Shown: piece after piece, positions 17,423-64,000 of the stretch
How the letters are laid out: each line of letters begins with the position of its first letter
How positions within the stretch are numbered: position 1 is the stretch's first letter
Origin: an uncultured virus (IMG/VR IMGVR_UViG_3300025767_000004)
Taxonomy: Duplodnaviria > Heunggongvirae > Uroviricota > Caudoviricetes
DNA length: 64,000 bases
Virus record (IMG/VR): IMGVR_UViG_3300025767_000004
Reading direction: 5' to 3' (one strand)
Program-made: the position numbers and the translations under genes
The notes under the pieces: generated by a model
Told to the model about the DNA's origin: nothing
Database searches by the model: none
The model's input: the letters and a program-made list of their open reading frames with translations, nothing else

Positions 17423-17462
17423 ATTGTTTTTTTTATCTATTACTAAAACATAATAAAATAAA

Positions 17463-17491: not shown

Positions 17492-17511
17492 GGTAAATGT
17501 TTTTAAGTAAT

Positions 17512-18292: not shown

Positions 18293-18349
18293 AATAATTT
18301 TTTATATCTATAAATAGTTAAGGTTTTAAAAAAACCTCTCTAATTGGTA

Positions 18350-18691: not shown

Positions 18692-18854
18692 AGTATGGAT
18701 TATTTCTATTGTATTTATTCTTACTAACGTTTTTCCTTAATGGTATATCAATATCGTAGGGGATAGTATTCTTCCTGTAAACCTTTGGTGTATGGTAGAA
18801 ACCACAGGAGGTAAACAAAAGACATACTAACCCTATCAATATCTTATTCATCAT
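18654..18854 (-). CDS. Putative lipoprotein
   Basis: MNKILIGLVCLLFTSC lipobox-like N-terminus. Confidence 0.55.
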   Translation of the reverse strand: MMNKILIGLVCLLFTSCGFYHTPKVYRKNTIPYDIDIPLRKNVSKNKYNRNNPYYEKDTTKNKLED

Positions 18855-19999: not shown

Positions 20000-20057
20000 T
20001 ATTTGTTATTAATTTATTTATTTAACCAACTAAGGTCTTTATTTAAATATCCGACGC

Positions 20058-20204
20058 TTAGTCATTAATGAATATAGCCATAATAATATATACAATCAAG
20101 GTGGTTCCGAATGTTGACATTGCGGATATAACAAACCCAATTCTAAATAATATTGTAGGAATATTTGTTATTCTCTCTAACCTTTTACACAATCCTGTTA
20201 TCAT
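20058..20204 (-). CDS. PspC-domain small membrane protein; not in ORF track
   Basis: 48 aa MITGLCKRLERITNIPTILFRIGFVISAMSTFGTTLIVYIIMAIFIND matches the GxCxxL...xxRxxF...YI PspC pattern; has its own promoter. Confidence 0.7.
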   Translation of the reverse strand: MITGLCKRLERITNIPTILFRIGFVISAMSTFGTTLIVYIIMAIFIND

Positions 20205-20223
20205 AATTTTTTATTGTTTAATA

Positions 20224-20255
20224 CAAACTTACAAAGTTTTATTTTAACTACCAAA
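20224..20255 (-). promoter_or_regulatory. Bacteroidetes sigma-70 promoter
   Basis: TTTG-N20-TAAGTTTG. Confidence 0.75.
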
Positions 20256-20256
20256 T

Positions 20257-30639: not shown

Positions 30640-30644
30640 ATCTA

Positions 30645-33600: not shown

Positions 33601-33764
33601 GCAACCTCAGAACCGTTTAACATAACAACTAAATCATTCGTAGATGCTTCAGTCACTAATGTGTATTCCGTACCACCATTATATAATTCAATATTTGGTG
33701 CTCCGTCGGCTTCTGCTCTATTAGGATAAATAATTACCCCTTTTGTTCCTTTTTCTAGTGCCAT
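30645..33764 (-). CDS. Collagen-like fibre protein 2 with extra tip domain and S74 chaperone
   Basis: Gly-X-Y about 98-838, ~92 aa Cys/aromatic domain, SDVRLKTD...IGFVAQ. Confidence 0.9.
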   Translation of the reverse strand: MALEKGTKGVIIYPNRAEADGAPNIELYNGGTEYTLVTEASTNDLVVMLNGSEVARMKTSGTERFVIQGDLIIEGDLKDSQGNVIINENGVYLGDIKGPQGLKGPQGYQGVKGIKGIKGTVGNRGPVGQKGPKGNKGIQGNVGPQGETSDNGAPGDKGYRGNDGPQGPKGIQGIKGIKGNVGDLGPVGPRGPKGEIGPKGPQGYKGIKGITGNVGYQGPQGIKGNIGAKGYTGDLGPVGTKGNIGAKGLKGVQGNQGNRGGQGPKGYQPKGPVGLKGNIGNRGPVGDKGIQGGIGSSPKGPTGPKGPTGPGGDKGYKGNKGNKGVAGPGGGKGLKGNIGNTGDRGLTGNIGNVGPTGDRGNQGPQGYRGPQGPKGLPQNDDPNTPGLVAPKGVKGPQGYIGNTGAKGNKGVKGYIGPQGDVGPQGNQTPALKGNKGNRGNTGITGDRGPTGDKGYIAPKGVKGYVGTKGNKGIKGNVGPGGPGGPIGGQGPVGDKGYKGNRGPQGYRGPQGSSPKGVIGQKGHKGNRGPTGLRGGTGPQGPTGPVGDKGYKGNKGYKGNKGVKGYQPQGPRGGQGGQGPVGGTAPQGPQGYKGNRGPKGYKGVKGYRGPHYQGPVGTKGNRGAQGDRGNTGTKGNKGIKGNIGPKGYRGDQGPKGYTGPSPKGPRGNTATKGNIGNVGPTGPQGDKGYKGAKGYNGGRGPTGYQGASGPTGAGGDKGPTGDKGYASGNQGAKGPKGNRGIQGYAGSPGGPGSRGNYTPTIGPKGVKGPRGYQGPTGPAGTQGYKGPRGPKGANGVKGYRGAVGPKGNAGADATVGLKGNRGATGTKGNRGDTGLSGPAQTTYYSHIIANGRDYFSSCNSPRNIEIFQTSSTFSFSNPIYLDPFGGQLAEPGYYSANGSTYYWNGISWSQASTCRGPGGDYPQNDGGGLSSSDVRLKTDIVEISNPLDKIMDLVPVEYDWTQESLEKEWAEVGYYGKHDIGFVAQNAKEVLPASVTTNSLGFLTMSYSRVVPLIIEAIKAEQINIDKLEEEINKLRLNNK

Positions 33765-44955: not shown

Positions 44956-47472
44956 TTAGTTTAATGCTATTAAATTAGCGTTTAACGTAGTTTCAAACTC
45001 ATTTACAGTTCCTTGGAATGCAATGTGGTTAGCTAAAGCTACCTCGTCTAAACCAACTCTTTCTTCTAATGAAGTTAAGTCACCGTTAATTGCTGCGTCA
45101 GCATTAGCTCTAGCAACCTCTTCAGTTGAGATTCTCGTAGTTAATACTGTATCAGCCGCTCCTCTTGCGTCAGCCTCTTCTTCAATTAATGCTTGTAAAG
45201 ATGCATCACCTGCACTTAATACAACACCAATAGAAGCGTCTTTCTGAATTCTCGTAGCAGACTCACCGTCTAATCTAGTAGATAATACTGTATCAACAGA
45301 TGCTCTTGCAACTTCTTCGTTAGATACTCTTGTATTGATTGATACGAAATCATCACCCGCTTTAGAATCTAATGATTCAACCGCTGAAGCTCTTACTGAT
45401 TCCTCAGTTGAGATTCTTGAAGTTAATGTAGCATCACCTGCGATTCTTGCTTCAGCCTCTAAAGAGATACTTTCAGCTAATGAACCTTCAGCAACTTGTC
45501 TACCTTCGATTTCAACATCGATTTTAGCATCTAATACACCGTCAGCGTTAGCTCTTACAACTTCTTCAGTTGAAAGTCTTGAAGTTAATGAACCGTCAGC
45601 AGAAATCATTGCCGCTGATAATGAATTATCTTTAGCTAATCTCGTAGACTCTTCACCTGATAATCTTGTCGTTAACGACATGTCAGCAGATGCTGATGTA
45701 GACTCTTCACCAGATAATCTAGTTTCTAATGAACCGTCAGCAGAATTTAATGTGTCAACCGCCTCAATGAACTCTTGGTGGTTACTCTCAACTAATTCAG
45801 CGATTGCCGTGTCAGCAGATGCTGATGTAGACTCTTCAGTCGATAATCTTGTCTCTAATGAATCAACACCGTCTAATTGGTTTTCTTCTAAAGTAGATAC
45901 TCTAGCGTCAATTGAACCATCAGCAGATACATAAGCATTTACGATAGACGTGTCAGCAGTACCTAAACCAGCGATTTGGTTTACGAAAGTCGCTTGTAAC
46001 GTGTTATCAGCAGCTAATTCATCAGCGATTTCTTTTAATGTATCAAACGCTTCAGGTGCACCGTTAATTAAACCGTTTACCGCTACGTCAATAGCATTGT
46101 CTCTGTTTACAACCTCGTTAGAGATTTCAACAGATAATTTGTTAGTGATTGAGATATCAGTTGATTCAACTGAAGATACAACACCTGAGATTCTAGAGTT
46201 TAAAGAAACTTTAGCATCTACTAACGCTCCTTCGTCAGCTAATACTCTCTCGTCAATAGATACGAAATCTTGACCCGCTTTAGCGTCTAATGAAACAACA
46301 GAAGATAATCTTACTGATTCCTCAGTTGATACTCTTACGTCTACAGACTCTACCTCAGCAGACATGTAGTCTTGTAATGAGTTAGTTAAAGAAACTGTAG
46401 CTTCTTCTTCCTCACCTAATCTTGTTTGTAATGAACCTTCGATTGCAACTGCTCTCTCGAATTCAGCATTGATTTTACCGTCTAATACTTCCTCAGCACC
46501 TTCAGCTCTTAAAGTCTCGATTGAAACCTTAGCGTCTAATGCGATAACGTCAGAGTTAGTTGAAGAAATCTCAGTACTTAAAGCCTCGTCTAATGCGTCA
46601 AACGCATTTCCTCTCGCCACTTCTTCAGCAGAAATTCTGTTAGTTAATGAACCATCAGCAGAAACGTAAGCCGTTACGATTGATGCGTCCTTGTTAGCAG
46701 ATAATACTTCTTCGTTTGATAATCTAGTTTCGATTGAACCTACACCACCAGCTAATTGAGCATCTACTGATTCGATAGCAGAAACTCTATCAGAAACCTC
46801 TGTAGAAATTTTACCATCTAATACAACATCAGCCGCAGTATAAGCAGTAACGATTGAAGCGTCTTTATTAGCTCTGATTGTAGCTTCTTCTTGAATCGAA
46901 GCGTTTAAAGCGATATCGCCTTCGTTACTTGCAGATTCTACTTCACCAATTTTAGTCGCTAAAGATGCGTCAGCAGCAAATCTTGTAGATGCTTCTGATG
47001 AAATCTTAGTCGCTAATGAAGCGTCTTTTTGTGTGAACGCAGTTTCTACTGAGTTTACTTTGTTTGTCATTGCAACAGTTACAGAAGCGTCTCCTGAAAC
47101 TCTTGATGACTCCTCCGCTGAAATTCTTGTGTCAGCCGAAGTTAATTTTGCACTTACTGATTGAGATGCCGCTAAATCCGCTGCCGCTCTATCAGATACC
47201 TCTACAGATAGTTTTGAAGCTAATGAATTGTCCCCTACTAAACGAGTTGACTCTTCCGCTGAAACTCTTACCTCTAAAGAAGTTGCCGCTGAATTGTTAT
47301 CAACGATTAAGTCTACGATAGAATTATCAGCAGAAAGTCTTGTTGACTCTTCGTTTGAAACTCTAGTGACTAATGATGTCCTACCAGTGGTGTTGGTGTT
47401 TACCTTACCAATGATTAGATTTAACTTACCCGCAATAAGTGATGCTAAATCTTGAAATTGAGTGTTTGCCAT
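44956..47472 (-). CDS. Acidic coiled-coil fibre protein
   Basis: Dense SLxTRLSxEExxRxxAD repeats; GAPEAFDTLKEIA; TATTTATA at 47509-47516. Confidence 0.8.
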   Translation of the reverse strand: MANTQFQDLASLIAGKLNLIIGKVNTNTTGRTSLVTRVSNEESTRLSADNSIVDLIVDNNSAATSLEVRVSAEESTRLVGDNSLASKLSVEVSDRAAADLAASQSVSAKLTSADTRISAEESSRVSGDASVTVAMTNKVNSVETAFTQKDASLATKISSEASTRFAADASLATKIGEVESASNEGDIALNASIQEEATIRANKDASIVTAYTAADVVLDGKISTEVSDRVSAIESVDAQLAGGVGSIETRLSNEEVLSANKDASIVTAYVSADGSLTNRISAEEVARGNAFDALDEALSTEISSTNSDVIALDAKVSIETLRAEGAEEVLDGKINAEFERAVAIEGSLQTRLGEEEEATVSLTNSLQDYMSAEVESVDVRVSTEESVRLSSVVSLDAKAGQDFVSIDERVLADEGALVDAKVSLNSRISGVVSSVESTDISITNKLSVEISNEVVNRDNAIDVAVNGLINGAPEAFDTLKEIADELAADNTLQATFVNQIAGLGTADTSIVNAYVSADGSIDARVSTLEENQLDGVDSLETRLSTEESTSASADTAIAELVESNHQEFIEAVDTLNSADGSLETRLSGEESTSASADMSLTTRLSGEESTRLAKDNSLSAAMISADGSLTSRLSTEEVVRANADGVLDAKIDVEIEGRQVAEGSLAESISLEAEARIAGDATLTSRISTEESVRASAVESLDSKAGDDFVSINTRVSNEEVARASVDTVLSTRLDGESATRIQKDASIGVVLSAGDASLQALIEEEADARGAADTVLTTRISTEEVARANADAAINGDLTSLEERVGLDEVALANHIAFQGTVNEFETTLNANLIALN

Positions 47473-47585
47473 TTGTTTTTTTTTAAATTAATGGTTTATT
47501 ATTGTTATTATAAATACTACGAAAATGTAGTAATTATTCTTTAAATGAAAAATAAGTTTGTATTTATGAAACTTTTTTTTCTATA

Positions 47586-48461
47586 TTACACAAGACCATT
47601 TAGATTGTCATCTAAATAGTTTTGGAAATCAGTATTAATACGGTGAGTTAATTCATCTTCAGTCACAACATCAACCTCTCCTTCTTCAGGAGAATCAGAT
47701 ACTAAATTATCTTCATTATCTTTTAAAGAAGATAAATCAACTGAGAAAATATCACCACCACCAGCACTCGAAAATGTAATTTGATTCGTTTGGTTGTCAA
47801 AAGCGGCACTATCAACGATAGTATTAACTAACCCCTGTAATGGAATCTCAACATCATCCGCCCCTGATATATTTAATGTAAGTACTCCTGAGTTGTAAGA
47901 CCCTCCGTACACAAAACGGTCATCTATACCTGATAAGTCTACACTTACGTTAGGTTCACCGTTACTTTGTTTAATCGTCAATACAGAACCCGTTAAAGTA
48001 GTTCCTGTTACTGAACTACCCGAACCACCGCCACTGAAGTCTAATTGTTCCCAAGCATCATCGTGGTTTCCTGTTCCTGTTAATTGTGAGAAGGTTGAAA
48101 AGTCAAATGCTGAAGTAGTAGGGTCTAACCATACTAACTTTTGTGCGTCTGACGCTGAATCCCACTCTTCTATAGTTACTAACGTTCCGTTAGCTCTCTT
48201 TGGGTTTAATTGAAATAACTTTCTCTCCCCAATAACATAAACCATCATACCTAGTCTTCTTCTACCTGAAGAATAACCGTCAGCACCAATAGTTGATGAT
48301 ACAGGAATGTCATTTCTGAAGTCCATATTTGGAACCTCCACATAACCACCGACACCTAAGTAAGAGTAATGAGTACCATACGTCGCATCACTTGATGCTG
48401 GTACCATCCCCGCTCCTGTCCTTAGACCTCCTGGTTCAATTGGAAAAACATTTTCTGACAT
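47586..48461 (-). CDS. Structural protein with RRLGMMVYV motif and beta-repeats
   Basis: GGY...RRLGMMVYV resembles Bacteroidetes phage structural proteins; VDLS repeats. Confidence 0.6.
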   Translation of the reverse strand: MSENVFPIEPGGLRTGAGMVPASSDATYGTHYSYLGVGGYVEVPNMDFRNDIPVSSTIGADGYSSGRRRLGMMVYVIGERKLFQLNPKRANGTLVTIEEWDSASDAQKLVWLDPTTSAFDFSTFSQLTGTGNHDDAWEQLDFSGGGSGSSVTGTTLTGSVLTIKQSNGEPNVSVDLSGIDDRFVYGGSYNSGVLTLNISGADDVEIPLQGLVNTIVDSAAFDNQTNQITFSSAGGGDIFSVDLSSLKDNEDNLVSDSPEEGEVDVVTEDELTHRINTDFQNYLDDNLNGLV

Positions 48462-48495
48462 ATTATTTTATTAAAAAATATATTAATTTATTTAC

Positions 48496-50631
48496 TTATA
48501 AACAAGTACTAACCTTCACCGTAAATTGTGTTCCATCAGGTTGTCCTAATAACCATCTATAAACTTTATATGATGACCCATTAATCGTAACCGTCTGACC
48601 ACCATTTGGTGTTACATTATACACTAAATTAGTCGCAGTGTCAATAATTGTTTCTACAGTACCCTGTGATACAGGGTGTAAATAGAACGCCTGTACTTCA
48701 TTAGAAGATGAACTATCACCAACATAATCTAAAGTATATGTTACGGTTGCTTTATCTGAACAAACGTCATGAGTAAATGTAGTTATTTTATTTGAATTGT
48801 TAAGTCTATCATTTACAAATGAATCAAATGTTGTTGGAGCCCCTTGAGTTAAGAATGGATAGAACTGATTATTATTACCATTAAATAATACTTGTCCCGC
48901 TCCCGCTCCTGAATCAGCATACATTAAGTATGACTCTGTAGGAGCACTTGTTGTTGTTGGTGTTGTACTTCCACCACCACTAGCAACCTCAGTTGAGTGG
49001 TAATATTCTACCTTATCATCTAAAGAAGTAATTGTAGATGACTGAGCACTTATTAAAGTCTGTAAACTACTCACTAAACTATTTAAATTACTAATGTCAT
49101 TATTAATGACCGTACTTAATTTACTATCTAATGAGATGATTGATGAATCGTTTGTTGAGATACTACTATTAATAGATTGCTCATCTAAATCGTGAGTGGT
49201 CTCTAAGTTACTTAACCTAGATGTTAATGATAGGTCACCAGTTAAACGATTGTCCTCTTCATTACTCACCCTACTATTAATAGAACCATCGTTATACTCT
49301 GTAGGTATTGAAATTGAATCGATGTCACTTTCTAATGTAGATACTCTACTATTAATTGATGTATCATTGTAAGTTGAACCTCCAATGTTGTCAACTCTAC
49401 TATTTAACGAATTAACCGAAGATGCAGTTGTAGATTCCTGACCACTAAGTCTCGTCTCGATAGATGTATCATCATAAGACTCAGATGAAGGTAATCCACT
49501 AACTGTTTGTTCTACTGTAGAAATTCTAGAAGATAACGAAGAATCATCAAAAGATGGGTGTATTAATAACCCTGCATAGTCTGATAATTCAGAAATATCA
49601 GAAACCATCGTAGGTATTACAATACCATCAACTCTTTGGTTTAATGAACTAACACTTAATGTCATCTCATTTTTAACTGACTCATCACCTGAGATTCTAC
49701 TACTTACTTCATTAGTGATACTAAGGTCAAGTCTAGCCTCGGTAGAAATTAAATTAACTTCGTCAGTCGATACTCTACTATTAATAGATGTGTCATTATA
49801 TGAATCCGTTGAGATTGAATCGATTCTTTGTGATAATGAATAATCTGAAGATTCTAAATTACTAACCGAAGAACTAAGTCTATTCTGAATAGATGCATCA
49901 TTATATGTAGCACCACCAATATTATCGAATCTACTATTTAAAGATGAAACCGATTGGTCCGTACCACTAATCCTTACCTCTAAAGAAGAAGGGTTAAATG
50001 ACTCAGGTATTACAATACCATTTAATGAACTCTCAATAGACGATACCTTTGTTGTTAATGAACTATCGTCAAACTCGTTTGGTATTACTATACCGTCAAT
50101 TTTATCATTTATAGAAGAAGTCGAACTAGTTAAATCCCCCTCAACCTCTGAAACACGACTAACTAAAGACGTGTCATTATATTCCGTAATACCAGTGATT
50201 CTTGTCTCCAATGAATCATCCCCTGATATTCTTAAACTCTCTTCTATTGATATGTTTGATGTTAATCCCTCATCTATAGTAGACCCTTGAGTACTTACCG
50301 CAACACTTAATGAGTCAACGATAGTCCCTTGGTCCAAACTTGATAAGTCAACTAAGAATTCGTCACCACCTGTTGTTGTTATTTTTAAAGAGGTACCAAT
50401 TAAGTCAACCGTACTAACACTGTTAGCCGCAACCTCACCAGTACTAATAGGGGTCAAATCTACCTGCTCAGTACTACCATCGTTTCTCTTAATAAGTAAG
50501 TCAGCACCACTAAGTTCTAACCCTGAAATAAGACCTGAGTCAACAATACTCGCTAACTCTTTTATCGTATCCACATTAGGACTTACACCCTGTATCGTAG
50601 TCGTTGTTGTTGTTTTATTGTATATAGCCAT
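48496..50631 (-). CDS. Ser/Asp-rich repeat fibre protein
   Basis: YNDTSINSRVS repeats, DTIKELA motif; TATTTATA at 50653-50660. Confidence 0.7.
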   Translation of the reverse strand: MAIYNKTTTTTTIQGVSPNVDTIKELASIVDSGLISGLELSGADLLIKRNDGSTEQVDLTPISTGEVAANSVSTVDLIGTSLKITTTGGDEFLVDLSSLDQGTIVDSLSVAVSTQGSTIDEGLTSNISIEESLRISGDDSLETRITGITEYNDTSLVSRVSEVEGDLTSSTSSINDKIDGIVIPNEFDDSSLTTKVSSIESSLNGIVIPESFNPSSLEVRISGTDQSVSSLNSRFDNIGGATYNDASIQNRLSSSVSNLESSDYSLSQRIDSISTDSYNDTSINSRVSTDEVNLISTEARLDLSITNEVSSRISGDESVKNEMTLSVSSLNQRVDGIVIPTMVSDISELSDYAGLLIHPSFDDSSLSSRISTVEQTVSGLPSSESYDDTSIETRLSGQESTTASSVNSLNSRVDNIGGSTYNDTSINSRVSTLESDIDSISIPTEYNDGSINSRVSNEEDNRLTGDLSLTSRLSNLETTHDLDEQSINSSISTNDSSIISLDSKLSTVINNDISNLNSLVSSLQTLISAQSSTITSLDDKVEYYHSTEVASGGGSTTPTTTSAPTESYLMYADSGAGAGQVLFNGNNNQFYPFLTQGAPTTFDSFVNDRLNNSNKITTFTHDVCSDKATVTYTLDYVGDSSSSNEVQAFYLHPVSQGTVETIIDTATNLVYNVTPNGGQTVTINGSSYKVYRWLLGQPDGTQFTVKVSTCL

Positions 50632-50714
50632 CTATCTATTCTTTTTGTTGTATATAAATATCTTAAACTTTATTATGAGTTTTAAAATCCTTACGTTTAT
50701 AAAAAATAATTAAC

Positions 50715-51686
50715 ATGAGGTATAGAAATTATAAATCCTACTCAACATATAATAAGGTATTACTACCTAACATCATTAGTGAAACTATTGTAGATTACTT
50801 TACACATTTGAATATCACTCATCCTTATAACATAAATACTTTAATTTATGATAAACACTGTAAGGTTTATATTCCTAAGACAAATATATTAGAATTAAAA
50901 AATTACTTATATAGTCAGAATAACGACTTAATTTCTAACTTTAAGAACTTAGAGTTTATTGAAACTTCTGAACCGTTCTTTTCCGATTACCTATCGTATG
51001 GTAATTACTACGGATACGCAATCAGTAATAATTATGGGTCCATACCTAAGGGTAAAAGTATATCAAATACAATACTCAATAAATTAGACGAGAAACATTC
51101 GAGTATCCTTCAGGTAACTTATGATACTAAGAATGATAACCTAACACGGTTAACTCTATTTACAACCGATAAAACCGTTGATAGTAATTTTGTATTTACA
51201 TTATCGGAATATATCACTGAAGATACAAACATTAAAGTTGTTTATACAAACCACAATACTAACGGTGAGTTTTATACCAATAACTCTAATCTACACATTA
51301 CACACGAGATTCCGAGTCATAACCCATTATTTGTAGGGGCAGACCCATTAAGTCCGTCTAAAGTTATACCACTATATCTTAGACATATCGCCAAGTCAAT
51401 GGTGAACTCATCACTTTTAGATGAATGTCTTATAACTGCGAACTACACCAATAACTCTTTAATCCCCGTCACACTGAATATCGACTCTTTTGGTACTGAG
51501 AAATACCCGATGAAATATATTTATACATGTCTAATGGATGTTTTTCCTTTATCATTAAAGGATATTAAAAAAGAGATTGACTTTTTTAAACCGATATATA
51601 GACAATCCTCAGAGTGTGATTATGTTAATAATATTAATTTACCTTGGGAGAGCACTAATAAGTCAAAAGATTTGATTATATTTTAA
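50715..51686 (+). CDS. Degenerate S-adenosylmethionine synthetase (MetK)-like protein lacking catalytic motifs
   Basis: Collinear MetK-like blocks YYGYA, QVTYD, NTNGEF, YLRHIAKSMVNSSLLDEC, IDSFGTEK, KPIYRQS, LPWESTNK; no GHPDK, GAGDQG or GGGAFSGKD. Confidence 0.7.
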   Translation: MRYRNYKSYSTYNKVLLPNIISETIVDYFTHLNITHPYNINTLIYDKHCKVYIPKTNILELKNYLYSQNNDLISNFKNLEFIETSEPFFSDYLSYGNYYGYAISNNYGSIPKGKSISNTILNKLDEKHSSILQVTYDTKNDNLTRLTLFTTDKTVDSNFVFTLSEYITEDTNIKVVYTNHNTNGEFYTNNSNLHITHEIPSHNPLFVGADPLSPSKVIPLYLRHIAKSMVNSSLLDECLITANYTNNSLIPVTLNIDSFGTEKYPMKYIYTCLMDVFPLSLKDIKKEIDFFKPIYRQSSECDYVNNINLPWESTNKSKDLIIF

Positions 51687-51688
51687 AT

Positions 51689-52237
51689 ATGAATAATACT
51701 AAAAAATGGATTTTTAAATATCGTTATCTTCAATTAGAGTTAGACGAAACTAAAGAAAAACAAGATAACTATACTAAGAAGTTTATGGAAGACTTTCATG
51801 AAGTCTTAGTCGACGAAAAAAATCAAGAAGGGATTAACAACGCATCTGAAGAAGGTAAACAACTTATAGACGCAATCAGTGATGAGGTTAAACCAAAAAA
51901 TAAATCTAAATTAGCAAAAGAACTTTACAGAAACATATCCCGTAAAACACATCCCGATGTGACAAAAGACGAAGATATGAATAATATCTTTAGTGAAGCC
52001 GCAGACGCATACGAAGAACTAAACCTTATGGAGTTAATTATGCTATCCGATAAGTTGGGTATTGATATTAGTTCTGAGATTGATGATAAAGATTTACAAA
52101 TGGTTCAAACTAACTGTGAGCAGGTTCAGGTAGAAATCGATACAATCAAATCAACATTAACGTGGCAATGGTGTACAACACCAGAAGAAAACAAAGAGGA
52201 ACTTAAAGAATACTTTATAGGTCTGTTGGTAAGGTAA
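51689..52237 (+). CDS. J-domain-containing protein
   Basis: KELYRNISRKTHPDV...IFSEAADAYE. Confidence 0.7.
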   Translation: MNNTKKWIFKYRYLQLELDETKEKQDNYTKKFMEDFHEVLVDEKNQEGINNASEEGKQLIDAISDEVKPKNKSKLAKELYRNISRKTHPDVTKDEDMNNIFSEAADAYEELNLMELIMLSDKLGIDISSEIDDKDLQMVQTNCEQVQVEIDTIKSTLTWQWCTTPEENKEELKEYFIGLLVR

Positions 52238-52239
52238 TC

Positions 52240-54081
52240 TTACTTAAGAAGTCTCTTAACTTCTTCTTCCTCAGCAATTAACTTTAATTTTGAAGGAGTT
52301 ATATACCCAATAGATTCGTCAATATTATATACGTTGGTCTTACGGTCAATAAATCCTACTGTCTCAAAAGTAGAATTGTTAACAAAGGTTGTTTTACCAT
52401 TCTCAACAATCATATTATGTGTCGCTAAGAAAAACTCTTTAACCTCGTCCTCACTAATCATAGCTGAAAAGTGTTCCATATCATATATGTATTTACTCAA
52501 CAATCTATCAAAAGTTTCTGGACTGTCCATATTACCCATATCGAAGTAATCTCCTTCATCATCAATAATCGTAATATCCCCATTATTTGAAACTCTTATA
52601 TATAAGGTTTCCAAATCACCATCAATAATCATAACAAATCCAAAATCATTATATTCGTCTTTGTCTGAGTAATCAACTACGTGTCTTGGTCTATACCCTA
52701 TATTCGTTAACGTATCAGTTATATAGTCAATAATTTCTTCACTATTGTGGTGGTCAAACTCTTCGTTTATTAACCTACTTTCATTTAATGTATCACTTAC
52801 CTCATCAACTGTCGTTGTTACTTCAGGGTATTTACCACCAATCTTACTTTCGTCTTTATCTTTATAGTCGATGTTCTTTAGAACGTGTCTTAATAAATTT
52901 AAGGTACCAACTCTTTTGTCATTACTATCAACAACAGTCCACGGCATCGCCTCTTTAGTCTGTGTCAATACTTTCTCCTTATACTCCGTATAACTATCCC
53001 ACTTATCAATCGACTTTTCATCGTTGGGTGAGAACTTCCAATATTTTAATGGTGAATTCTTTCTTAGGTCGAATCTTTTCTTTTGAGTTTCTGAAGTGAT
53101 TGACAACCAAAACTTAAATAGTTTAACCCCTCTATCAACTAACGACTTCTCAAAATCGTTTACAGTATTCATAAAGTCAAAATACTCTTCTTCACTACCG
53201 TAACCCATAACAGGTTCAACTATACCTCTGTTGTACCAACTACGGTCAAAGAATGTTATCTTTCCTGGTTCAATATACTTTTCATATCTTCCGAACCAAT
53301 CTTTTCTTTCCTCATCTGATGGTATACCTAAAGCCACAACCTTAAAATACTTAGGGTCTAAGTATTCTGTCATTTTTTTAATTGTAGAACCTTTACCTGC
53401 AGAATCTCTTCCTTCCATTACAATAGCAACAGGAGTACTAGTTTCTTTTACATGTTCCTGTAGTTTTAATAACTCAACCTGTAGGGGTAATAATTCTTTT
53501 TTGAATTGCTTTCTACCAATCTTAGATTGTTCTGGCTCGATACCACCATAAAGAAAATCATCGTCAATACCAAAATCATCTGACGGGTCAGACTTTGAAT
53601 CTTCCCTACTCTTAATTGAGTCGATGTATTTTTGGATGTACTTTTTTATGTTTTCAGTTTTATCTCCCGACTTAAGTAATTTTCTATCTAAATTTCTAAT
53701 AAATGAATCTGAGATATCATCATCAGTTAACTGACCAACTAAATCTTCTAAAGATTCTGAATCAATTTCACTATCTCTTAATTTGTCTTTTAAGGTATCA
53801 ACACTTTCAACAACCAATCCTAACATCTTATTAATGAATGTTGTTGGAAATACATTATAGATATCCTCTTTAATAATATCCTTACCGTTTTTCTTTATAG
53901 TATAGAAAACTTCACCATTACGCGATTCTGTTAATGTTGTATTTTTTGCAATTGAGATATTATAATACTCTCCCGTACTCTCTTCAATGAATACAAAGTT
54001 TTTAAATCCTATCGCCTCATTAACCTCTAATAATGTCTTACCTTTAACATTTAAAAGTAATTTGGATTCTGTGATGTTCAT
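52240..54081 (-). CDS. ppk2: Polyphosphate kinase 2 with long N- and C-terminal extensions
   Basis: LQVELLKLQ, MEGRDSAGKGSTIK, FDRSWYNR, KFWLSI, LKYWKFSPND, PWTVV. Confidence 0.93.
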   Translation of the reverse strand: MNITESKLLLNVKGKTLLEVNEAIGFKNFVFIEESTGEYYNISIAKNTTLTESRNGEVFYTIKKNGKDIIKEDIYNVFPTTFINKMLGLVVESVDTLKDKLRDSEIDSESLEDLVGQLTDDDISDSFIRNLDRKLLKSGDKTENIKKYIQKYIDSIKSREDSKSDPSDDFGIDDDFLYGGIEPEQSKIGRKQFKKELLPLQVELLKLQEHVKETSTPVAIVMEGRDSAGKGSTIKKMTEYLDPKYFKVVALGIPSDEERKDWFGRYEKYIEPGKITFFDRSWYNRGIVEPVMGYGSEEEYFDFMNTVNDFEKSLVDRGVKLFKFWLSITSETQKKRFDLRKNSPLKYWKFSPNDEKSIDKWDSYTEYKEKVLTQTKEAMPWTVVDSNDKRVGTLNLLRHVLKNIDYKDKDESKIGGKYPEVTTTVDEVSDTLNESRLINEEFDHHNSEEIIDYITDTLTNIGYRPRHVVDYSDKDEYNDFGFVMIIDGDLETLYIRVSNNGDITIIDDEGDYFDMGNMDSPETFDRLLSKYIYDMEHFSAMISEDEVKEFFLATHNMIVENGKTTFVNNSTFETVGFIDRKTNVYNIDESIGYITPSKLKLIAEEEEVKRLLK

Positions 54082-54096
54082 ACTATTAAGTTTTAA

Positions 54097-54104
54097 TATA
54101 AATA
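54097..54104 (-). promoter_or_regulatory. Putative late promoter TATTTATA for ppk2
   Basis: tataaata on +, about 15 nt upstream of the ATG. Confidence 0.55.
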
Positions 54105-54638
54105 CTACTTTAGTTTAGAAATTAACGTAAAGTAATCAATATTACTATCACAGTAATGTACAATAGATTCTAATAGTGTTCTAAACTTCTTAACTTTAGG
54201 TTTAACCTTCTCACTTAAGATATAAAGATTAATAACCGTTGATAACATCTCTATCGATAACTCACCGTAAAAATTAAGTTCCGAATATTCACCTAACACC
54301 CTGTCAAAATCAAAGACATAACTATCTCTCTCTTCAACACTTGAGGGTACCACCATAGTATCCCATATCATTAAAAAATCAACGATAAAATCTTTGGTTA
54401 GTTCTTTGTTCTGCTGAGCCTTTAATAGAAGGTCAACACCAATCATACAGTATGAAGGAGTTCTCAGATTTTTAGACTTACTCGTATCTAAATACTTCAC
54501 CATAAAGTCCATATCTGTTATATCCCCATCAAATGTGGCGATAACAACACCCTCATCCAACTGAAACTCTCTAATAGATTTTAATCTAGGACCTCTAGGT
54601 ACTTTATATTCTAACCCAACCTTAGTCTCAACTATCAT
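54105..54638 (-). CDS. Hypothetical protein
   Basis: 177 aa ORF coupled to glutaredoxin. Confidence 0.6.
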   Translation of the reverse strand: MIVETKVGLEYKVPRGPRLKSIREFQLDEGVVIATFDGDITDMDFMVKYLDTSKSKNLRTPSYCMIGVDLLLKAQQNKELTKDFIVDFLMIWDTMVVPSSVEERDSYVFDFDRVLGEYSELNFYGELSIEMLSTVINLYILSEKVKPKVKKFRTLLESIVHYCDSNIDYFTLISKLK

Positions 54639-54907
54639 AGATATTCCTTTATTAGTGTTACCGCATCGGGTAAGTCATGAAAATCTCTATCAGGTGTCAA
54701 ATACCTTTTAGTGAATTTTTCATCATCTCTTATTTCTATTGCCGGAATAAATTCATTTTTAGTATGGTCTACTAATAACGCATACTGCATTTCGTAGTCA
54801 TCACAATTTCTTTCAGTATACACCACCTTACTTTCATCCAATAACTCCTTCATTTGAAGACAGTAAGGACACGTATCCATCGTATAAACAAAAACCGTTT
54901 TAGACAT
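54635..54907 (-). CDS. Glutaredoxin-like protein
   Basis: VYT...CPYC...IP. Confidence 0.85.
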   Translation of the reverse strand: MSKTVFVYTMDTCPYCLQMKELLDESKVVYTERNCDDYEMQYALLVDHTKNEFIPAIEIRDDEKFTKRYLTPDRDFHDLPDAVTLIKEYL

Positions 54908-55220
54908 TTAATGACTCTTTTATAGTTTCAATTAGGTGTTGTTTAGATTGTACCCCAGAATATCTCTCTTTGATTTCACCGTTATCAATCATAACAAACG
55001 TTGGAATTCCTCTAACCCCAAACTCTGCAGATAATTCTCTCTCCTCATCAGCGTTTACCTTAACAAAAGTAACTTCACTATCCTTAAACTCTTCAGATAC
55101 TGTTTCTAATACAGGCATCATCATCTTACACGGTCCACACCAATCAGCGTAGAAATCTATAAACACTTTATTGTTTCCGTTTTGTAATTCTTTAAATTCT
55201 TCGTAATTTACTTTTTCCAT
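54900..55220 (-). CDS. trxA: Thioredoxin
   Basis: DFYADWCGPCK, GVRGIPT. Confidence 0.95.
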   Translation of the reverse strand: MEKVNYEEFKELQNGNNKVFIDFYADWCGPCKMMMPVLETVSEEFKDSEVTFVKVNADEERELSAEFGVRGIPTFVMIDNGEIKERYSGVQSKQHLIETIKESLNV

Positions 55221-55270
55221 TATATTATATTTTATACAATCTTAATCAATTAATTTATTTTTATAAAGTA

Positions 55271-55855
55271 TTATTTAGCAACTCTAAAAATACTATAATC
55301 TAATCCTTTTAAATTTTCATTTGGGAATCTATATTCCAATGTATCATTACTCGTGGTGATAATCTTAGTGAATGAGGTTGGTAACTCAGCCCCATACGGT
55401 AACATAACACTACCCTCAAAGTTCACAGTAACCTTTACAGTGACTTTTCCGTATTTCTTAAGTAATTCCCTTTCATACTTTTCTAAGTCCTTCCACGGTC
55501 CTCTATTAAGTCCCTCGTGTTGAAGGGAACAGTTTAAATAACTAAAGGTGGTTTTTAAATCCTCTTCGTCGCAATTAAAGTCCGCCGCTGGTGCAATATG
55601 ACCCTTATCCCAAACATTATTTTTATAATCTTGGTTATTGGAAGTGACAACTCCCTTATACGACCTAAAGTCCAATCCTTTACGACTATACTTACTCTCG
55701 TAACATAATACTTCATACTCAACCATTAGTGGTTGTTGCTTAACCTCAGAATAAATTACTTTATATATCCCCATATCCACAAAAACACTATCTCTAAGTG
55801 TCTGTGAATATAAGTTTCCAAAACTTAATACAAAAATTATCGTTAATATTCTCAT
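55271..55855 (-). CDS. DNA/RNA non-specific endonuclease (His-Me, NucA-like) with signal peptide
   Basis: WDKGHIAPAAD, TFSYLN, LNRGPWKDLE; N-terminal signal MRILTIIFVLSFGNLYSQ. Confidence 0.9.
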   Translation of the reverse strand: MRILTIIFVLSFGNLYSQTLRDSVFVDMGIYKVIYSEVKQQPLMVEYEVLCYESKYSRKGLDFRSYKGVVTSNNQDYKNNVWDKGHIAPAADFNCDEEDLKTTFSYLNCSLQHEGLNRGPWKDLEKYERELLKKYGKVTVKVTVNFEGSVMLPYGAELPTSFTKIITTSNDTLEYRFPNENLKGLDYSIFRVAK

Positions 55856-57492
55856 TAAAATTCTATTTCTATTCTATCATAATCATTATCCATATATTCA
55901 TCGAATGTCAAACCTCTGGATAGTCTCTTATAATTTCTTTTATCTTCACCCTCTAATATAGTATAACTGTCACTCTTAGTATTGTAAACTTTAACTTTAA
56001 AATCTGATAGCGATTTTTTCCTTACCAACTGTTTAATAATATTCTCAATATATTCTGCCGAGTCATACATAGACTCATCTATGTCTTTGTTGAATCTCAT
56101 TCTTTTCTGAATACACTGACCCTTCATATTAAACTCCATTGTAATTCTTTCTTTACCCTTTCTAGCAGATACTATAATAGTGTTGAATTTATCGGCATAA
56201 GTCCTCACACAATTATGTTGGTAAATCGACTCTTCAATATAGTCCATATCATTTTCCAATAACTTATACTCTGTCCCATTAAAGTTTGTATTGATAGTCT
56301 CTTTAACCTCGTCATCAAAAAGATAATAAATCTCTTCAGACTTCGCATACATCTGTATTCTTTGACTACACGAATAATGAACCTCTTTAAATTGTTCAAT
56401 AGTAAATTCACCAAATTTTAATTCAGGTTCAAAAGGTTTAAGGGAGTCCATTATTCTTAAATGGTCAATAATGATTCCAGTTAAATTAGTTCTTTGGTGC
56501 TCGTTAAACTTAACCGCAACCCCCTGTTGACTAACATATAAATTTATTAACTTAACAATGTTTTTTCTATCATTGTCAGTTAACCATTCATAATTTAACT
56601 CATTCCTTTGTTCTTCCCAATTGGTCAAATCTTTGTTATTCCCGTATAATCTTTTTTCTGATTTAAAAAACTCTCTATCTATGGTTTTGAAGTATTTAAT
56701 CCCTAATATCTGTAAATAGTCAACCATAATCGACACATCAGGCAATCCCTGATTAAAAACCTTATTGAAGTACTTACCCTTAAAATTCAATTTACTCATT
56801 AAAGACTTTACGATATTCCCATCGTTCTTCTTCATCGCCACTTTACCAGGGTAATACTTAAGGAAATAATTATATATGTTGTTCGGTCCTTTATAACCGT
56901 TTCTTTTTACAAAAACATCAATAAGTGAGTAATGGATTGGATACTTATACTCAACGTCATCATCTAACTCAGATAGGAAAGCCTTAAATATGCTATTAAT
57001 CTCAACTCCGTTTATATTGAATCTTTTAATCTCATTATTAAACGTACTACTCAACATCTCAAAATTATTAACGTATATCTTACTACGTTCTCGATTATAT
57101 AAAGATTTTTCTTTCTCTATGATGTAAAAATTATTCGTCCTCTTATTATATGTTAAAAATATTCGATAATATGTCTTTGAAAAGAATTTTTTACCTACCT
57201 TTCTATGTTTGTTGTATTCGTAAAGACCAATCCTTACTTTATCTCCCTCAGTCTCAACAACCACAGTTTTTCGATAACAGTCTAACTCCGCTAATCCATT
57301 TGAGTAATTATCCACAAAGGATTCCTCAGTATGTTCCGAGTTCTTAATTCTAAACCTATACTCACTCCCGTTTCTTTCAAATCGAGTCCTAGTGTATGCT
57401 CCACGCACAATGATATCATCGAGACTATTCTCCACCTCGTGAAATATAACATTGTATTCCTTAAATACTTCTTTGAGTATTACTCGTCTCAT
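55855..57492 (-). CDS. PcfJ-like domain protein
   Basis: C-terminal EESIYQHNCVRTY...ITME pattern. Confidence 0.65.
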   Translation of the reverse strand: MRRVILKEVFKEYNVIFHEVENSLDDIIVRGAYTRTRFERNGSEYRFRIKNSEHTEESFVDNYSNGLAELDCYRKTVVVETEGDKVRIGLYEYNKHRKVGKKFFSKTYYRIFLTYNKRTNNFYIIEKEKSLYNRERSKIYVNNFEMLSSTFNNEIKRFNINGVEINSIFKAFLSELDDDVEYKYPIHYSLIDVFVKRNGYKGPNNIYNYFLKYYPGKVAMKKNDGNIVKSLMSKLNFKGKYFNKVFNQGLPDVSIMVDYLQILGIKYFKTIDREFFKSEKRLYGNNKDLTNWEEQRNELNYEWLTDNDRKNIVKLINLYVSQQGVAVKFNEHQRTNLTGIIIDHLRIMDSLKPFEPELKFGEFTIEQFKEVHYSCSQRIQMYAKSEEIYYLFDDEVKETINTNFNGTEYKLLENDMDYIEESIYQHNCVRTYADKFNTIIVSARKGKERITMEFNMKGQCIQKRMRFNKDIDESMYDSAEYIENIIKQLVRKKSLSDFKVKVYNTKSDSYTILEGEDKRNYKRLSRGLTFDEYMDNDYDRIEIEF

Positions 57493-63132: not shown

Positions 63133-63291
63133 ATGTCTTGCAGTAAATGTAAAAAGAAAGAAGAAAGAGAATTTATCGAAAAAGAAATTAATCGATTGGA
63201 ACGACCAGTACAGATATTTGTATTTGCGGGATTAGCACTTACACTATACGGTATTGTATCATTAGTGATTAAAGTTGTCTCCCTTTTTTAA
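63133..63291 (+). CDS. Small membrane protein MSCSKCKKK...; not in ORF track
   Basis: 52 aa with CxxC, basic patch and C-terminal TM; TATTTATT at 63106-63113. Confidence 0.55.
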   Translation: MSCSKCKKKEEREFIEKEINRLERPVQIFVFAGLALTLYGIVSLVIKVVSLF

Positions 63292-64000
63292 TTCCTCTAA
63301 TAATCTAATCTCTGTGTCCGTTAGTTGTTTCGGACTAATCACCTTAAACTTAATGTATAGGTCTCCCTGACCGTAACTAGTCATAAAACCCTTACCTCTA
63401 ACTCTTATCGGTTGGTCTGGTTGTAAACACGTTGGTGAGTTTACTTTTATCTTAGTTGTAAATAAATCCACAATTACTTCAGTACCCAATAACACGTCAA
63501 TAGGATTTATACTATGGGTATATATAATATCATTACCGTACTTTTCGTAAACACCGTCACTCTCAATACTAATAATAACGATTAGGTCACCTGTGAATCT
63601 CTGACCCTCATTACCACCACCACGAACTCTAAACATATTACCGTCATCACAATTGCTTGGGATGTTAATTTTTATAGTTCTTAATTCTTCTCTACCCTGA
63701 AGGTCTTTTCGGTAATACCTTATCTCTTTATCTAAACCTAAAACACAATCCTTAACCGTAATAGATAAGTCTATTTTAATATCTGACCCTCTTAAGTTCG
63801 CATTCCTTCTCTGAGACCTAAAGATATCCTCACCAAAATGTTGTCCGAAGAAATCTGAGAAGTTAATTTTTGGGGTGTCGTACTCTCTTCTCTTATTCTC
63901 ATCACCTAAAACACTATACGCCTCATTAATCTTTTTAAACATTTCATCGTTACCATCATTAATATCTGGATGGTATTTTTTGGACAACTGTCTGTACATC
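63262..64000 (-). CDS. dnaJ: DnaJ-class chaperone (J domain plus C-terminal domain, no Zn finger); 5' end outside window
   Basis: YRQLSKKYHPD, FKKINEAYSVL, RGSDI, GDLIV, RVRGKG...GDLYI. Confidence 0.88.
   Translation of the reverse strand, partial: MYRQLSKKYHPDINDGNDEMFKKINEAYSVLGDENKRREYDTPKINFSDFFGQHFGEDIFRSQRRNANLRGSDIKIDLSITVKDCVLGLDKEIRYYRKDLQGREELRTIKINIPSNCDDGNMFRVRGGGNEGQRFTGDLIVIISIESDGVYEKYGNDIIYTHSINPIDVLLGTEVIVDLFTTKIKVNSPTCLQPDQPIRVRGKGFMTSYGQGDLYIKFKVISPKQLTDTEIRLLEELKKGDNFNH

What the first reader, a model, noticed from the sequence alone, without database searches (positions are those of the whole stretch)
50715..51686. Catalytically dead MetK (SAM synthetase) homologue retained as an intact gene
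Seen: the 323 aa ORF aligns by eye with MetK as I recall it (NIISETIVD~DQISDAVLD; YYGYA~MFGYA; NTNGEF~NPTGRF; YLRHIAKSMVNSSLLDEC~YAARYVAKNIVAAGLADRC; IDSFGTEK~VETFGTEK; KPIYRQS~HPIYKET; LPWESTNK~FPWEKTDK). The catalytic signatures GHPDK, GAGDQG and GGGAFSGKD are all gone, yet there are no stops or frameshifts. Established: MetK active sites lie at subunit interfaces, SAM is needed by type I R-M and BREX, and T3 SAM lyase both degrades SAM and binds MetK. Inference: a pseudo-enzyme that poisons or retunes host MetK oligomers (anti-defence or SAM control), or a repurposed scaffold. The phage's own methyltransferases need SAM, so modulation is more likely than shutdown.
Basis: partly seen in the sequence, partly recalled or inferred. 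Interest (0 to 1): 0.75.

Follow-up and report, generated by a model that had tools for sequence, protein, structure and literature searches.

The report
Dead MetK copy in marine phage
A large marine phage keeps, under strong selection, a full-length copy of the enzyme that makes the methyl donor SAM, but the copy has lost the residues needed for catalysis and always sits just before a small chaperone-recruiting gene, so it does a non-enzymatic job that is still unknown.

Summary
ORF 50715-51686 (+, 323 aa) is a full-length homologue of S-adenosylmethionine synthetase (MetK). Evidence: Pfam C-terminal domain E 1.5e-14; profile-profile match to active MetKs at 99.8% over residues 96-320; an AlphaFold model with TM 0.82-0.83 to solved MetKs; and an independent ESM Atlas model with TM 0.86 over residues 3-323.

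It keeps only 11 of 43 positions that are invariant in 28 active MetKs. The GHPDK, GAGDQG and GGGAFSGKD loops and the phosphate- and metal-binding Lys, Arg, Asp and Glu are replaced or deleted, so it almost certainly cannot make SAM.

It is not decaying. dN/dS is 0.016-0.094 in 14 unsaturated pairs, and 90 of 323 columns are invariant across 12 homologues of 48-61% identity.

In 8 of 8 related phage contigs it is followed, two bases after its stop codon, by a J-domain (HPD) gene. The pair lies on the strand opposite to its neighbours.

Function is not shown. My best guess (about 0.3) is a subunit mimic that binds host MetK and lowers or retunes SAM synthesis. Rivals are a J-protein/DnaK-linked scaffold, a remodelled ligand pocket, and an assembly role. 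I found no description of this family in print. Automatic annotation would wrongly call it a metK metabolic gene.

The parts
50715..51686 (+). Pseudo-MetK gene: 323 aa, full three-domain MetK fold, catalytic residues lost
   Evidence: ORF. Pfam PF02773. hhalign 99.8% to active MetKs. AF2 pLDDT 91.7 and Foldseek TMq 0.82-0.83 to MetK structures. ESM Atlas model TM 0.86 over residues 3-323. 11 of 43 MetK-invariant positions kept.
50715..50744 (+). N-terminal strand MRYRNYKSYS. R2, R4, N5, Y6 and K7 are invariant in 12 of 12 homologues. It replaces the first MetK strand, whose invariant Glu becomes Lys.
   Evidence: Alignment A1; column table; translation.
50976..51020 (+). Remnant of the GAGDQG loop and the following strand (FFSDYLSYGNYYGYA). 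Only the Asp (D91) and the G-Y-A are shared with MetK. YGNYYGY is invariant within the family.
51318..51362 (+). Remnant of the GGGAFSGKD phosphate loop and the start of the next helix (HNPLFVGADPLSPSK). K265 is Ala here (Ser in 10 of 13 members), K269 is Ser, and D271 is Ser or Asn.
51372..51650 (+). Stretch matched by Pfam S-AdoMet_synt_C (residues 220-312). This is the part most like MetK.
   Evidence: the family matches in 12 of 12 members.
51689..52237 (+). Downstream partner gene of 182 aa, starting two bases after the pseudo-MetK stop codon. It has a central J-domain (residues about 66-112, nt 51884-52024) with an invariant HPD.
   Evidence: Pfam DnaJ E 1.3e-5, 25.7 bits, just under the cut-off of 27.8. 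The family profile matches the CbpA J-domain 2kqx_A at E 8.6e-6. HPD is invariant in 6 of 6 sequences. The gene is present after pseudo-MetK in 8 of 8 contigs.
50632..50714 (.). Divergent intergenic region between the fibre-like gene (minus strand) and pseudo-MetK (plus strand). It has blocks conserved in 6 of 6 aligned phages: ATAAATATC, CTTTAT.ATG and TTTAT.AAAA.
   Evidence: Alignment A5. Promoter-like matches in the region are not above shuffled expectation, so no promoter is claimed.

Best explanation
Shown: the gene encodes a MetK-derived pseudoenzyme. It keeps the whole three-domain MetK fold. It has lost the glycine-rich loops and the metal- and phosphate-binding residues, so it almost certainly cannot make SAM. 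It is a core gene, under purifying selection, in a small clade of large marine phages whose nearest cultured relative infects Flavobacterium. It always forms a two-gene unit with a J-domain protein. Inferred: it acts by binding and not by catalysis, and the most likely partner is the host's own MetK, which it resembles as a subunit. From my recall of the E. coli MetK structures, each MetK active site is built from residues of both subunits across the flat dimer face. On that basis one dead subunit in a dimer would cripple both sites, so mixed oligomers should lower or retune SAM synthesis. This would be the same target as T3 SAM lyase, reached by a different route. The co-translated J-protein could recruit host DnaK to open pre-existing, stable MetK oligomers so that mixed ones can form. 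That last step is pure inference.
For: Fold and homology. Loss of catalysis: 11 of 43 positions invariant in 28 active MetKs are kept, and 5 of the 43 are deleted in all 13 family members. Lost positions include H18, D20, D162, K164, D238, R244, K245, K265, K269 and D271 in P0126 numbering. NCBIfam metK scores 53.7 bits against a cut-off of 309.4. Glycine content is 2.2% against 7-10% in active MetKs. Selection: dN/dS is 0.016-0.094 in the 14 of 28 pairs with dS 0.08-1.15, similar to three neighbouring genes at 0-0.10. Ninety of 323 columns are invariant among 12 homologues of 48-61% identity. Core position and pairing with the J gene: 8 of 8 contigs, with a two-base spacing. Precedent that a phage protein binds and inhibits MetK: abstract of 10.1101/2023.02.27.530186 and PDB 8bb1. 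Former catalytic columns are not released from constraint: 23 of 50 are fixed within the family against 86 of 273 other columns.
Against: No result here shows any binding partner. The flat face that would have to dock on host MetK is heavily remodelled by three deletions and the loss of all glycine loops. Replaced catalytic columns are no more fixed than the rest of the protein (11 of 33 against 56 of 210, p = 0.41), so there is no signal of a specially conserved interface. The phage carries two DNA methyltransferases in this window, which need SAM, so shutting down SAM looks self-defeating unless it is timed or partial. The gene is a syntenic core gene (8 of 8), whereas anti-defence genes are usually variable. 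The J-like family also occurs alone in a 642-kb uncultured phage with no MetK-like sequence within 4 kb, so the J gene does not depend on pseudo-MetK.
Confidence: 0.3

Rival explanations
1. Repurposed scaffold or adaptor working with the J-domain protein and host DnaK on a target unrelated to SAM. The MetK fold would be only a stable platform.
For: The gene is invariably adjacent to the J gene, two bases apart, in 8 of 8 contigs. The J gene has an invariant HPD. The window also encodes a full DnaJ at 63262-63999. Related large Flavobacteriia phages are reported to carry DnaJ and DnaK (passages of PMC12619734). One characterised phage J-protein acts through DnaK (PMC3486835, search listing only).
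Against: The J-like family exists without pseudo-MetK in a megaphage. Nothing shows that the two proteins touch. Adjacency alone is weak evidence.
Confidence: 0.2
2. The former active-site cavity has been re-specified to bind a small molecule, as a sensor or sponge, or to carry out a new reaction.
For: Eleven former MetK-invariant columns are changed but fixed in the family: E to K7, D to N19, D to E23, E to N41, E to P54, A to Y89, G to F186, G to N189, G to N203, K to S213 and Y to L220. D91 and D210 are retained in 13 of 13 members. An invariant aromatic block, YGNYYGY, sits at the old site.
Against: The enrichment of fixed columns at the old site is not significant (p = 0.41 for replaced columns, 0.052 overall). 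Charges for both metal and phosphate binding are neutralised, so a nucleotide or triphosphate ligand is unlikely. No ligand is indicated by any result.
Confidence: 0.15
3. Morphogenetic or virion-associated role, for example as an assembly factor for the neighbouring tail-fibre module.
For: It is a core gene at a fixed position next to the fibre-like genes in 8 of 8 contigs. A J-protein neighbour could serve fibre folding.
Against: It lies on the opposite strand to the structural genes. The nearest cultured relative, Flavobacterium phage immuto, is not among the organism names tallied or the 40 records listed for the tblastn match (56 of the 96 records were not listed). No structural-protein family matches it.
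Confidence: 0.1
4. Still an active, very divergent SAM synthetase.
For: The full MetK fold is present. Pfam and JGI-style annotation would name it so; a comparable degenerate cluster is named SAM synthetase by a source.
Against: Thirty-two of 43 invariant positions are lost, including the His, the Lys and Arg that hold the triphosphate and the Asp that hold the metals (the roles are recalled from the MetK literature). NCBIfam metK scores 53.7 bits against a cut-off of 309.4.
Confidence: 0.02
5. A decaying relic that happens to be still open.
For: It is the fastest-evolving of the compared neighbours across deep splits: 47-61% identity against 65-82%.
Against: dN/dS is 0.016-0.094. The frame is intact in all 8 contigs and in 13 protein clusters. 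Ninety columns are invariant.
Confidence: 0.02

Closest known systems
Canonical S-adenosylmethionine synthetase MetK/MAT (Pfam PF00438 + PF02772 + PF02773; TIGR01034; e.g. E. coli 1fug, 7ll3)
   Same: It has the same three-domain fold over the whole length (TMq 0.82-0.83; TM 0.86). The C-terminal domain is recognisable by sequence. It shares fold-determining residues: P111, R223, K227, P251 and W311-E312.
   Different: It is 323 aa against about 380-400. Three deletions lie at the active-site face. Only 11 of 43 invariant positions are kept. The GHPDK, GAGDQG and GGGAFSGKD loops are gone. The Pfam N-domain model matches 0 of 12 family members and the central-domain model only 3 of 12, weakly. 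The score is far below the TIGR01034 cut-off.
Compact active phage MetKs (about 345-358 aa; e.g. Streptococcus phage Javan320 QBX26447.1, and metagenomic P0060, P0027, P0051, P0054, P0016)
   Same: They are phage-encoded, shortened, and the best full-length sequence matches: residues 18-313, 24% identity.
   Different: They keep all 43 invariant positions (they were among the 28 used to define those positions). In Javan320 the gene lies about 1 kb upstream of two DNA methyltransferase genes, which fits a role in SAM supply. The window's family sits on a very long stem (3.17 changes per column) and its origin is unresolved.
T3 SAM lyase (SAMase), which cleaves SAM and also binds and inhibits host MetK
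   Same: It would share the target, host SAM supply through MetK, if the best explanation is right (abstract; PDB 8bb1).
   Different: The fold is unrelated, and T3 SAM lyase is an active enzyme. Here the agent would be a dead copy of the target itself. Nothing here shows MetK binding.
Dead-paralogue regulators ('prozymes') of trypanosomatid AdoMetDC and deoxyhypusine synthase
   Same: A catalytically dead paralogue is kept by selection and forms mixed oligomers with the active enzyme (abstract openings of PMC5201418 and PMC3663545).
   Different: Those paralogues activate their partner and sit in the same genome. Here the dead copy is viral and the partner would be the host's enzyme. In MetK, shared active sites make inhibition the more likely outcome (inference).
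Phage J-domain protein Rki of RB43
   Same: The downstream gene is a small phage J-domain protein with HPD. Rki works through host DnaK (title and abstract opening of PMC3486835).
   Different: There is no sequence relation beyond the J-domain, and Rki is not paired with a MetK-like gene, as far as I recall.

Membership tests
MetK/MAT superfamily (fold and common descent) | Three repeated beta-alpha-beta-beta-alpha-beta domains over the full length | tested here: met
   The AF2 model has pLDDT 91.7 and pTM 0.89 (its alignment included MetKs, which biases it towards the fold). Foldseek finds 8bb1_A at E 3.2e-22 and TMq 0.82. Independent check: the ESM Atlas model has TM 0.86 over residues 3-323. 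The low-confidence family-only model places its helices and strands in the same order.
MetK/MAT superfamily (fold and common descent) | Significant sequence similarity to MetK | tested here: met
   PF02773 E 1.5e-14; hhalign 99.8% over residues 96-320; BLASTP E 4e-15 over residues 18-313.
Functional SAM synthetase (EC 2.5.1.6, TIGR01034 equivalog) | GHPDK motif (His and Asp at the triphosphate and metal site) | tested here: not met
   The G, H, P and D columns are Y, N, K and V in the window protein and variable across the family.
Functional SAM synthetase (EC 2.5.1.6, TIGR01034 equivalog) | GAGDQG loop and the gating-loop Q-S | tested here: not met
   Only the Asp (D91) is kept. The Q102 and S103 columns are deleted in 13 of 13 members.
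Functional SAM synthetase (EC 2.5.1.6, TIGR01034 equivalog) | Phosphate-binding Lys and Arg and metal-binding Asp (D162, K164, D238, R244, K245, K265, K269, D271 in P0126 numbering) | tested here: not met
   D162 and K164 are deleted. D238 is variable. R244 is Asn in 11 of 13 members. K245 is Ser, Asn, Asp or Thr. K265 is Ser, Ala or Thr in 12 of 13. K269 is Ser in 12 of 13. D271 is Asn or Ser in 13 of 13.
Functional SAM synthetase (EC 2.5.1.6, TIGR01034 equivalog) | Score above the curated equivalog cut-off | tested here: not met
   53.7 bits against 309.4.
Functional SAM synthetase (EC 2.5.1.6, TIGR01034 equivalog) | Makes SAM from ATP and methionine | not testable with these tools
   This needs an enzyme assay.
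J-domain proteins (downstream gene) | Helix II, HPD, helix III | tested here: met
   HPD is invariant in 6 of 6 sequences. The profile matches the CbpA J-domain at E 8.6e-6. The Pfam score of 25.7 is just under the cut-off of 27.8.
Subunit-mimic inhibitor of host MetK (working hypothesis, not an established family) | Forms mixed oligomers with host MetK | not tested
No host MetK was modelled or assayed.

The most novel reading that the evidence does not exclude
A phage two-gene module for subunit poisoning of an essential host enzyme. The dead MetK copy would be a Trojan subunit. The co-translated J-domain protein would recruit host DnaK to pry open pre-existing, kinetically stable MetK oligomers, so that inactive mixed oligomers form within the short time of an infection. 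SAM supply would collapse or be retuned, and SAM-dependent defences with it. That would be a new principle: chaperone-assisted dominant-negative subunit exchange. Other dead MetK-fold families in large phages (leads from earlier notes of this scan, and the degenerate P0050 and P0055 found here) may have reached it more than once.
Probability: 0.1. Interest if true: 0.9.

Novelty: new variant of a known kind. Interest (0 to 1): 0.62.

Why it matters
metK is routinely counted as a viral auxiliary metabolic gene on the strength of a Pfam hit. This family carries that hit and cannot make SAM, so such counts include non-enzymes. A comparable degenerate cluster is named SAM synthetase by a source.

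If the protein targets host MetK, it would be the first viral dead-subunit inhibitor of SAM synthesis, and a second route to this target alongside T3 SAM lyase. SAM is a cofactor of type I R-M and BREX (abstract).

Full-text searches for a dead or inactive phage MetK found nothing. The paper on large Flavobacteriia phages with DnaJ and DnaK does not contain the words S-adenosylmethionine or MetK.

The phage is common. The stretch is held in marine metagenome runs of 16 studies, some of which may be its source. A pull-down and a SAM measurement would settle the question.

Tried and rejected
- **Complex prediction.** I ran pseudo-MetK (alignment A1) with the J-like protein (A3). The verdict was 'no answer', score 0.00 against a mark of 0.32, and the controls were not run. 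This is evidence neither for nor against binding.
- **Host MetK and homodimer.** With the one job spent, neither the host-MetK heterodimer nor a homodimer could be modelled.
- **RNA evidence.** Contigs of four metatranscriptome runs were laid on 47000-56000.
  - One contig (X20, record 27) spans 51601-51851, across the junction of the two genes.
  - One contig (X19, record 23) spans 50587-50813, over the intergenic region and the first 99 bases of the gene.
  - Bins 50913-51514, the body of the gene, have no cover in any of the four runs.
  - Contigs cannot show a transcript, DNA can be present in RNA libraries, and a gap proves nothing. Expression is therefore neither shown nor excluded.
- **Family-only AlphaFold run.** With 12 rows it gave pLDDT 51.8, too poor to use alone.
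- **Search for relatives in viral contigs.** Fifty-seven pattern matches were found and none was confirmed.
- **Fused forms.** No fused longer forms of 570-2000 aa were found, which is weak evidence.
- **Whole-genome searches.** They were not possible. No genome is held for the window or for loci L002, L003 and L007. I could not check whether the phage also has an active MetK outside the window. Inside the 64 kb there is none (tblastn).
- **T4-type late promoter.** TATAAATA occurs 16 times against 12.0 +/- 3.5 expected, which is not enriched. The copy at 50653 fits the minus-strand fibre-like gene better. Sigma-70-like matches are at shuffled level.
- **Origin of the family.** It is monophyletic in the tree, but its sister (P0136) is flagged as a long-branch join. 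The tree is a quick one, because the careful search did not finish. No donor is claimed.
- **Fixation test at former catalytic columns.** Not significant.
- **Earlier notes on this genome.** None were found, by place or by sequence.
Full report
**What is there**

The window is part of a large, AT-rich tailed phage. It has collagen-like fibre genes with S74 chaperone domains, thymidylate synthase, two DNA methylases, thioredoxin- and glutaredoxin-like ORFs, a DnaJ, and many genes of unknown function. Nearly all of these lie on the minus strand.

The nearest cultured relative is Flavobacterium phage immuto. Its ThyA is 55% identical, and there are short DNA matches at 67-68%. The protein's cluster is seen on 16 contigs, the longest 171,142 bases.

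**Homology to MetK**

By sequence, the C-terminal third is unmistakably MetK:
- Pfam PF02773: E 1.5e-14, residues 220-312.
- E. coli MetK 1fug_A: E 5.5e-12, residues 205-318 against chain residues 261-374. With a profile of 12 family members the E-value is 1.5e-17.
- Profile-profile comparison with 28 active MetKs extends the match to residues 96-320, at 99.8% and E 2.6e-29.
- tblastn against 50,697 phage records found 96 records, 7 of which cover at least 80% of the query. These are compact MetKs of about 345 aa in Streptococcus prophages.
- The Javan320 protein aligns over residues 18-313 at 24% identity, E 4e-15. It keeps GHPDK, GAGDQG and GGGAFSGKD.

**Fold**

- An AlphaFold run with the 12 family rows alone was poor, at pLDDT 51.8.
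- With a 54-row alignment that adds MetK relatives it reached pLDDT 91.7 and pTM 0.89.
- Foldseek then returned MetK and MAT chains: 8bb1_A at E 3.2e-22 and TMq 0.82, and 7r2w at TMq 0.83. At least 167 matches have E <= 0.001, and all those listed are MetK or MAT.
- Because that alignment contains MetKs, the model leans towards the fold.
- The independent check is the ESM Atlas's own single-sequence model (pTM 0.79). It superposes on a 398-aa MetK cluster at TM 0.86 over residues 3-323.
- The poor family-only model also places its helices and strands in the same order.

The full MetK fold is therefore established.

**Loss of catalysis**

I picked 28 MetKs by eye for having the motifs, and found 43 alignment columns that are invariant among them.

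- The window protein keeps 11 of the 43. The 13 family members keep 11-14. Five columns are deleted in all 13.
- Lost positions are the Gly-His-Pro-Asp of GHPDK, the Q-S of the gating loop, and the D.K strand (D162 and K164).
- Also lost are D238, R244 and K245 in the D.G.TGRK loop, the three Gly and K265 of the phosphate loop, and K269 and D271.
- Their roles in binding metal, triphosphate and methionine are recalled from the E. coli MetK literature. They come from no call.
- Kept positions are D91 (the Asp of GAGDQG), A102, P111, T188, D210, R223, A226, K227, P251 and W311-E312.
- P111, R223, K227, W311 and E312 are also kept by every other degenerate MetK-like protein I looked at. They are probably needed for the fold.
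- Glycine falls to 2.2% from 7-10%.
- NCBIfam's metK equivalog scores 53.7 bits against a cut-off of 309.4.
- Pfam's N-domain model matches 0 of 12 family members. The central-domain model matches 3 of 12, weakly (best E 0.0053). The C-domain model matches 12 of 12.

**Not decay**

- A word-indexed search found 12 proteins (including the query), all 318-325 aa and 48-61% identical to the query.
- An exhaustive profile search of 1.84 billion representatives found 1,406 proteins at E <= 0.001. Only two reached <= 1e-30 (P0006 and the 327-aa P0014). The next best is 4.5e-22, which is ordinary MetKs.
- The family is therefore small and sharply separated.
- Ninety of 323 columns are invariant among the 12. 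These include the N-terminal MRYRNYK, the block YGNYYGY, and the C-terminal LIIF.
- From the window and seven metagenome loci I computed pairwise NG86 dN/dS.
  - Of 28 pairs, 8 had incomputable dS, 5 had dS above 2.5, and 1 was identical.
  - The other 14 had dS 0.08-1.15 and gave 0.016-0.094. L005 and L006 are identical, so some of these pairs repeat.
  - Three neighbouring genes gave 0-0.10 over the same range.
- In a quick maximum-likelihood tree the family is one clade (SH-aLRT 100) on a stem of 3.17 changes per column, against a median end branch of 0.77. This fits a burst of change followed by constraint.
- Its sister is flagged as a long-branch join and the careful search did not finish, so no origin is claimed.

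**Context**

- In all seven loci and the window, the gene sits between a fibre-like gene on the opposite strand and a conserved gene set: a 270-aa protein, a 177-aa protein, and glutaredoxin-like and thioredoxin-like ORFs.
- In 8 of 8 contigs it is followed on the same strand by a gene of about 182 aa. In L008 this gene was found by ORF listing, not by the BLAST table.
- In the window the stop codon and the next ATG are two bases apart.
- That downstream protein has a central J-domain.
  - Pfam DnaJ scores E 1.3e-5 and 25.7 bits, just under the cut-off of 27.8.
  - The family profile matches the CbpA J-domain 2kqx_A at E 8.6e-6.
  - HPD is invariant in 6 of 6 sequences.
- The downstream protein is more conserved (65-82% identity) than pseudo-MetK (47-61%).
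- A homologue of the J-like protein (29% identity, E 1e-8) occurs in the 642-kb uncultured phage LR756502. No MetK-like sequence lies within 4 kb on either side of it. The J gene therefore does not depend on pseudo-MetK.
- The window holds no second MetK-like sequence.
- The rest of the phage genome could not be searched.

**Mechanism**

What is shown ends here: a MetK-fold protein without MetK chemistry, kept by selection, and paired with a J-protein.

For the rest I commit to the following, at about 0.3.

- The protein acts by binding, and its most likely partner is the host's MetK.
- The reasoning rests on established MetK structure, which I recall and did not test. The two active sites of a MetK dimer lie on the flat interface and use residues from both subunits. 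One dead subunit would therefore disable both sites.
- It also rests on the precedent that a phage protein, T3 SAM lyase, binds and inhibits MetK to defeat BREX (abstract; PDB 8bb1).

Against this reading:
- The docking face is heavily remodelled.
- Replaced catalytic columns are no more fixed than the rest of the protein: 11 of 33 against 56 of 210, p = 0.41. Overall the figures are 23 of 50 against 86 of 273, p = 0.052.
- The phage's own two methylases need SAM.
- The gene is a syntenic core gene, not a variable accessory gene.

The rivals are a J-protein/DnaK-linked scaffold (0.2), a re-specified pocket (0.15), an assembly role (0.1), residual activity (0.02) and decay (0.02).

The boldest reading that is not excluded is that the J-protein recruits DnaK to open stable host MetK oligomers so that poisoned mixed oligomers can form (0.1).

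**Comparison with what is known**

- It belongs to the MetK superfamily by fold and descent. It fails every tested feature of a functional SAM synthetase.
- It resembles the dead-paralogue regulators of trypanosomatid AdoMetDC and deoxyhypusine synthase in principle (abstract openings). Those regulators activate their partner and are not viral.
- Full-text searches found no paper on an inactive phage MetK. The terms methionine adenosyltransferase + pseudoenzyme + phage together returned 0 papers.
- The paper on large Flavobacteriia phages with DnaJ and DnaK has 0 occurrences of S-adenosylmethionine or MetK (passages only).
- Subscription journals are not covered by these searches.

**Earlier notes of this scan**

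These are AI notes, used as leads only.
- Four notes describe 978-base genes in other genomes as a dead MetK always followed by a J-domain gene. They agree with what I found independently.
- Three notes describe shorter dead MetK-fold proteins (825 and 690 bases) in other giant phages.
- Loss of catalysis in MetK homologues may therefore be recurrent. Their genomic context was not examined.

**Verdict**

It is a new variant of a known kind. Interest is 0.62.

Noticed in passing
window 52240-54081 (-): The 613-aa protein is the 270-aa protein conserved in the seven related loci, with an insertion of about 335 residues (about 88-421). The insertion carries a complete PPK2 polyphosphate kinase domain (Pfam E 6.2e-72, residues 190-411). 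Residues 13-87 and 422-613 align to residues 12-86 and 79-270 of the L008 orthologue. Only this phage of the eight has the insertion.
   Followed up: partly
window 3772, 18309, 22609, 50653, 54097, 61615 (+ strand hits): TATAAATA on the + strand reads TATTTATA on the sense strand of minus-strand genes. It lies 14-21 bases upstream of the start codons of six of them, including the fibre-like gene next to pseudo-MetK. The total count (16) is not above chance (12.0 +/- 3.5), so this may be a leader or promoter element, or nothing.
   Followed up: partly
L009 (LR756502.1 537724-546191), ORF 3809-4480: A 223-aa homologue of the J-like protein (THPD motif, and a shared C-terminal TW.W block) stands alone in a 642-kb uncultured phage, with no MetK-like neighbour.
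   Followed up: partly
proteins P0050, P0055, P0095, P0136, P0128, P0017 (metagenomic): These are other MetK homologues with partly or largely eroded catalytic positions: 13, 21, 29, 30, 30 and 34 of 43 kept. P0050 (338 aa) shares the family's D-to-N and D-to-E changes in helix 1, and JGI names a member of its cluster S-adenosylmethionine synthetase.
   Followed up: partly
window 12871-21327 (-): This cluster may modify DNA or nucleotides. It holds a carbamoyltransferase (12871-14643), an N6/N4 DNA methylase (14881-15744), a DUF2827 gene (18851-19999) and a thymidylate-synthase homologue that is long for the family (356 aa against a 266-position profile; 20257-21327).
   Followed up: no
window 27829-36565 (-): Three tandem fibre genes of about 930-1040 aa each carry many collagen triple-helix repeats and a C-terminal S74 intramolecular chaperone domain. 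This stretch has raised GC (0.41-0.45 against about 0.33).
   Followed up: no
window 63262-63999 (-), cut by the window end: A full DnaJ homologue (J-domain plus DnaJ_C) is encoded 11 kb from the small J-like gene. The phage therefore carries at least two J-proteins.
   Followed up: no
window 50400-52500: The stretch is held nearly complete (share of words 0.72-1.00) in 16 marine or seawater metagenome runs dated 2017-2025. All 20 holders together come from 16 studies, and nine runs may be the source. The phage appears widespread in seawater.
   Followed up: no
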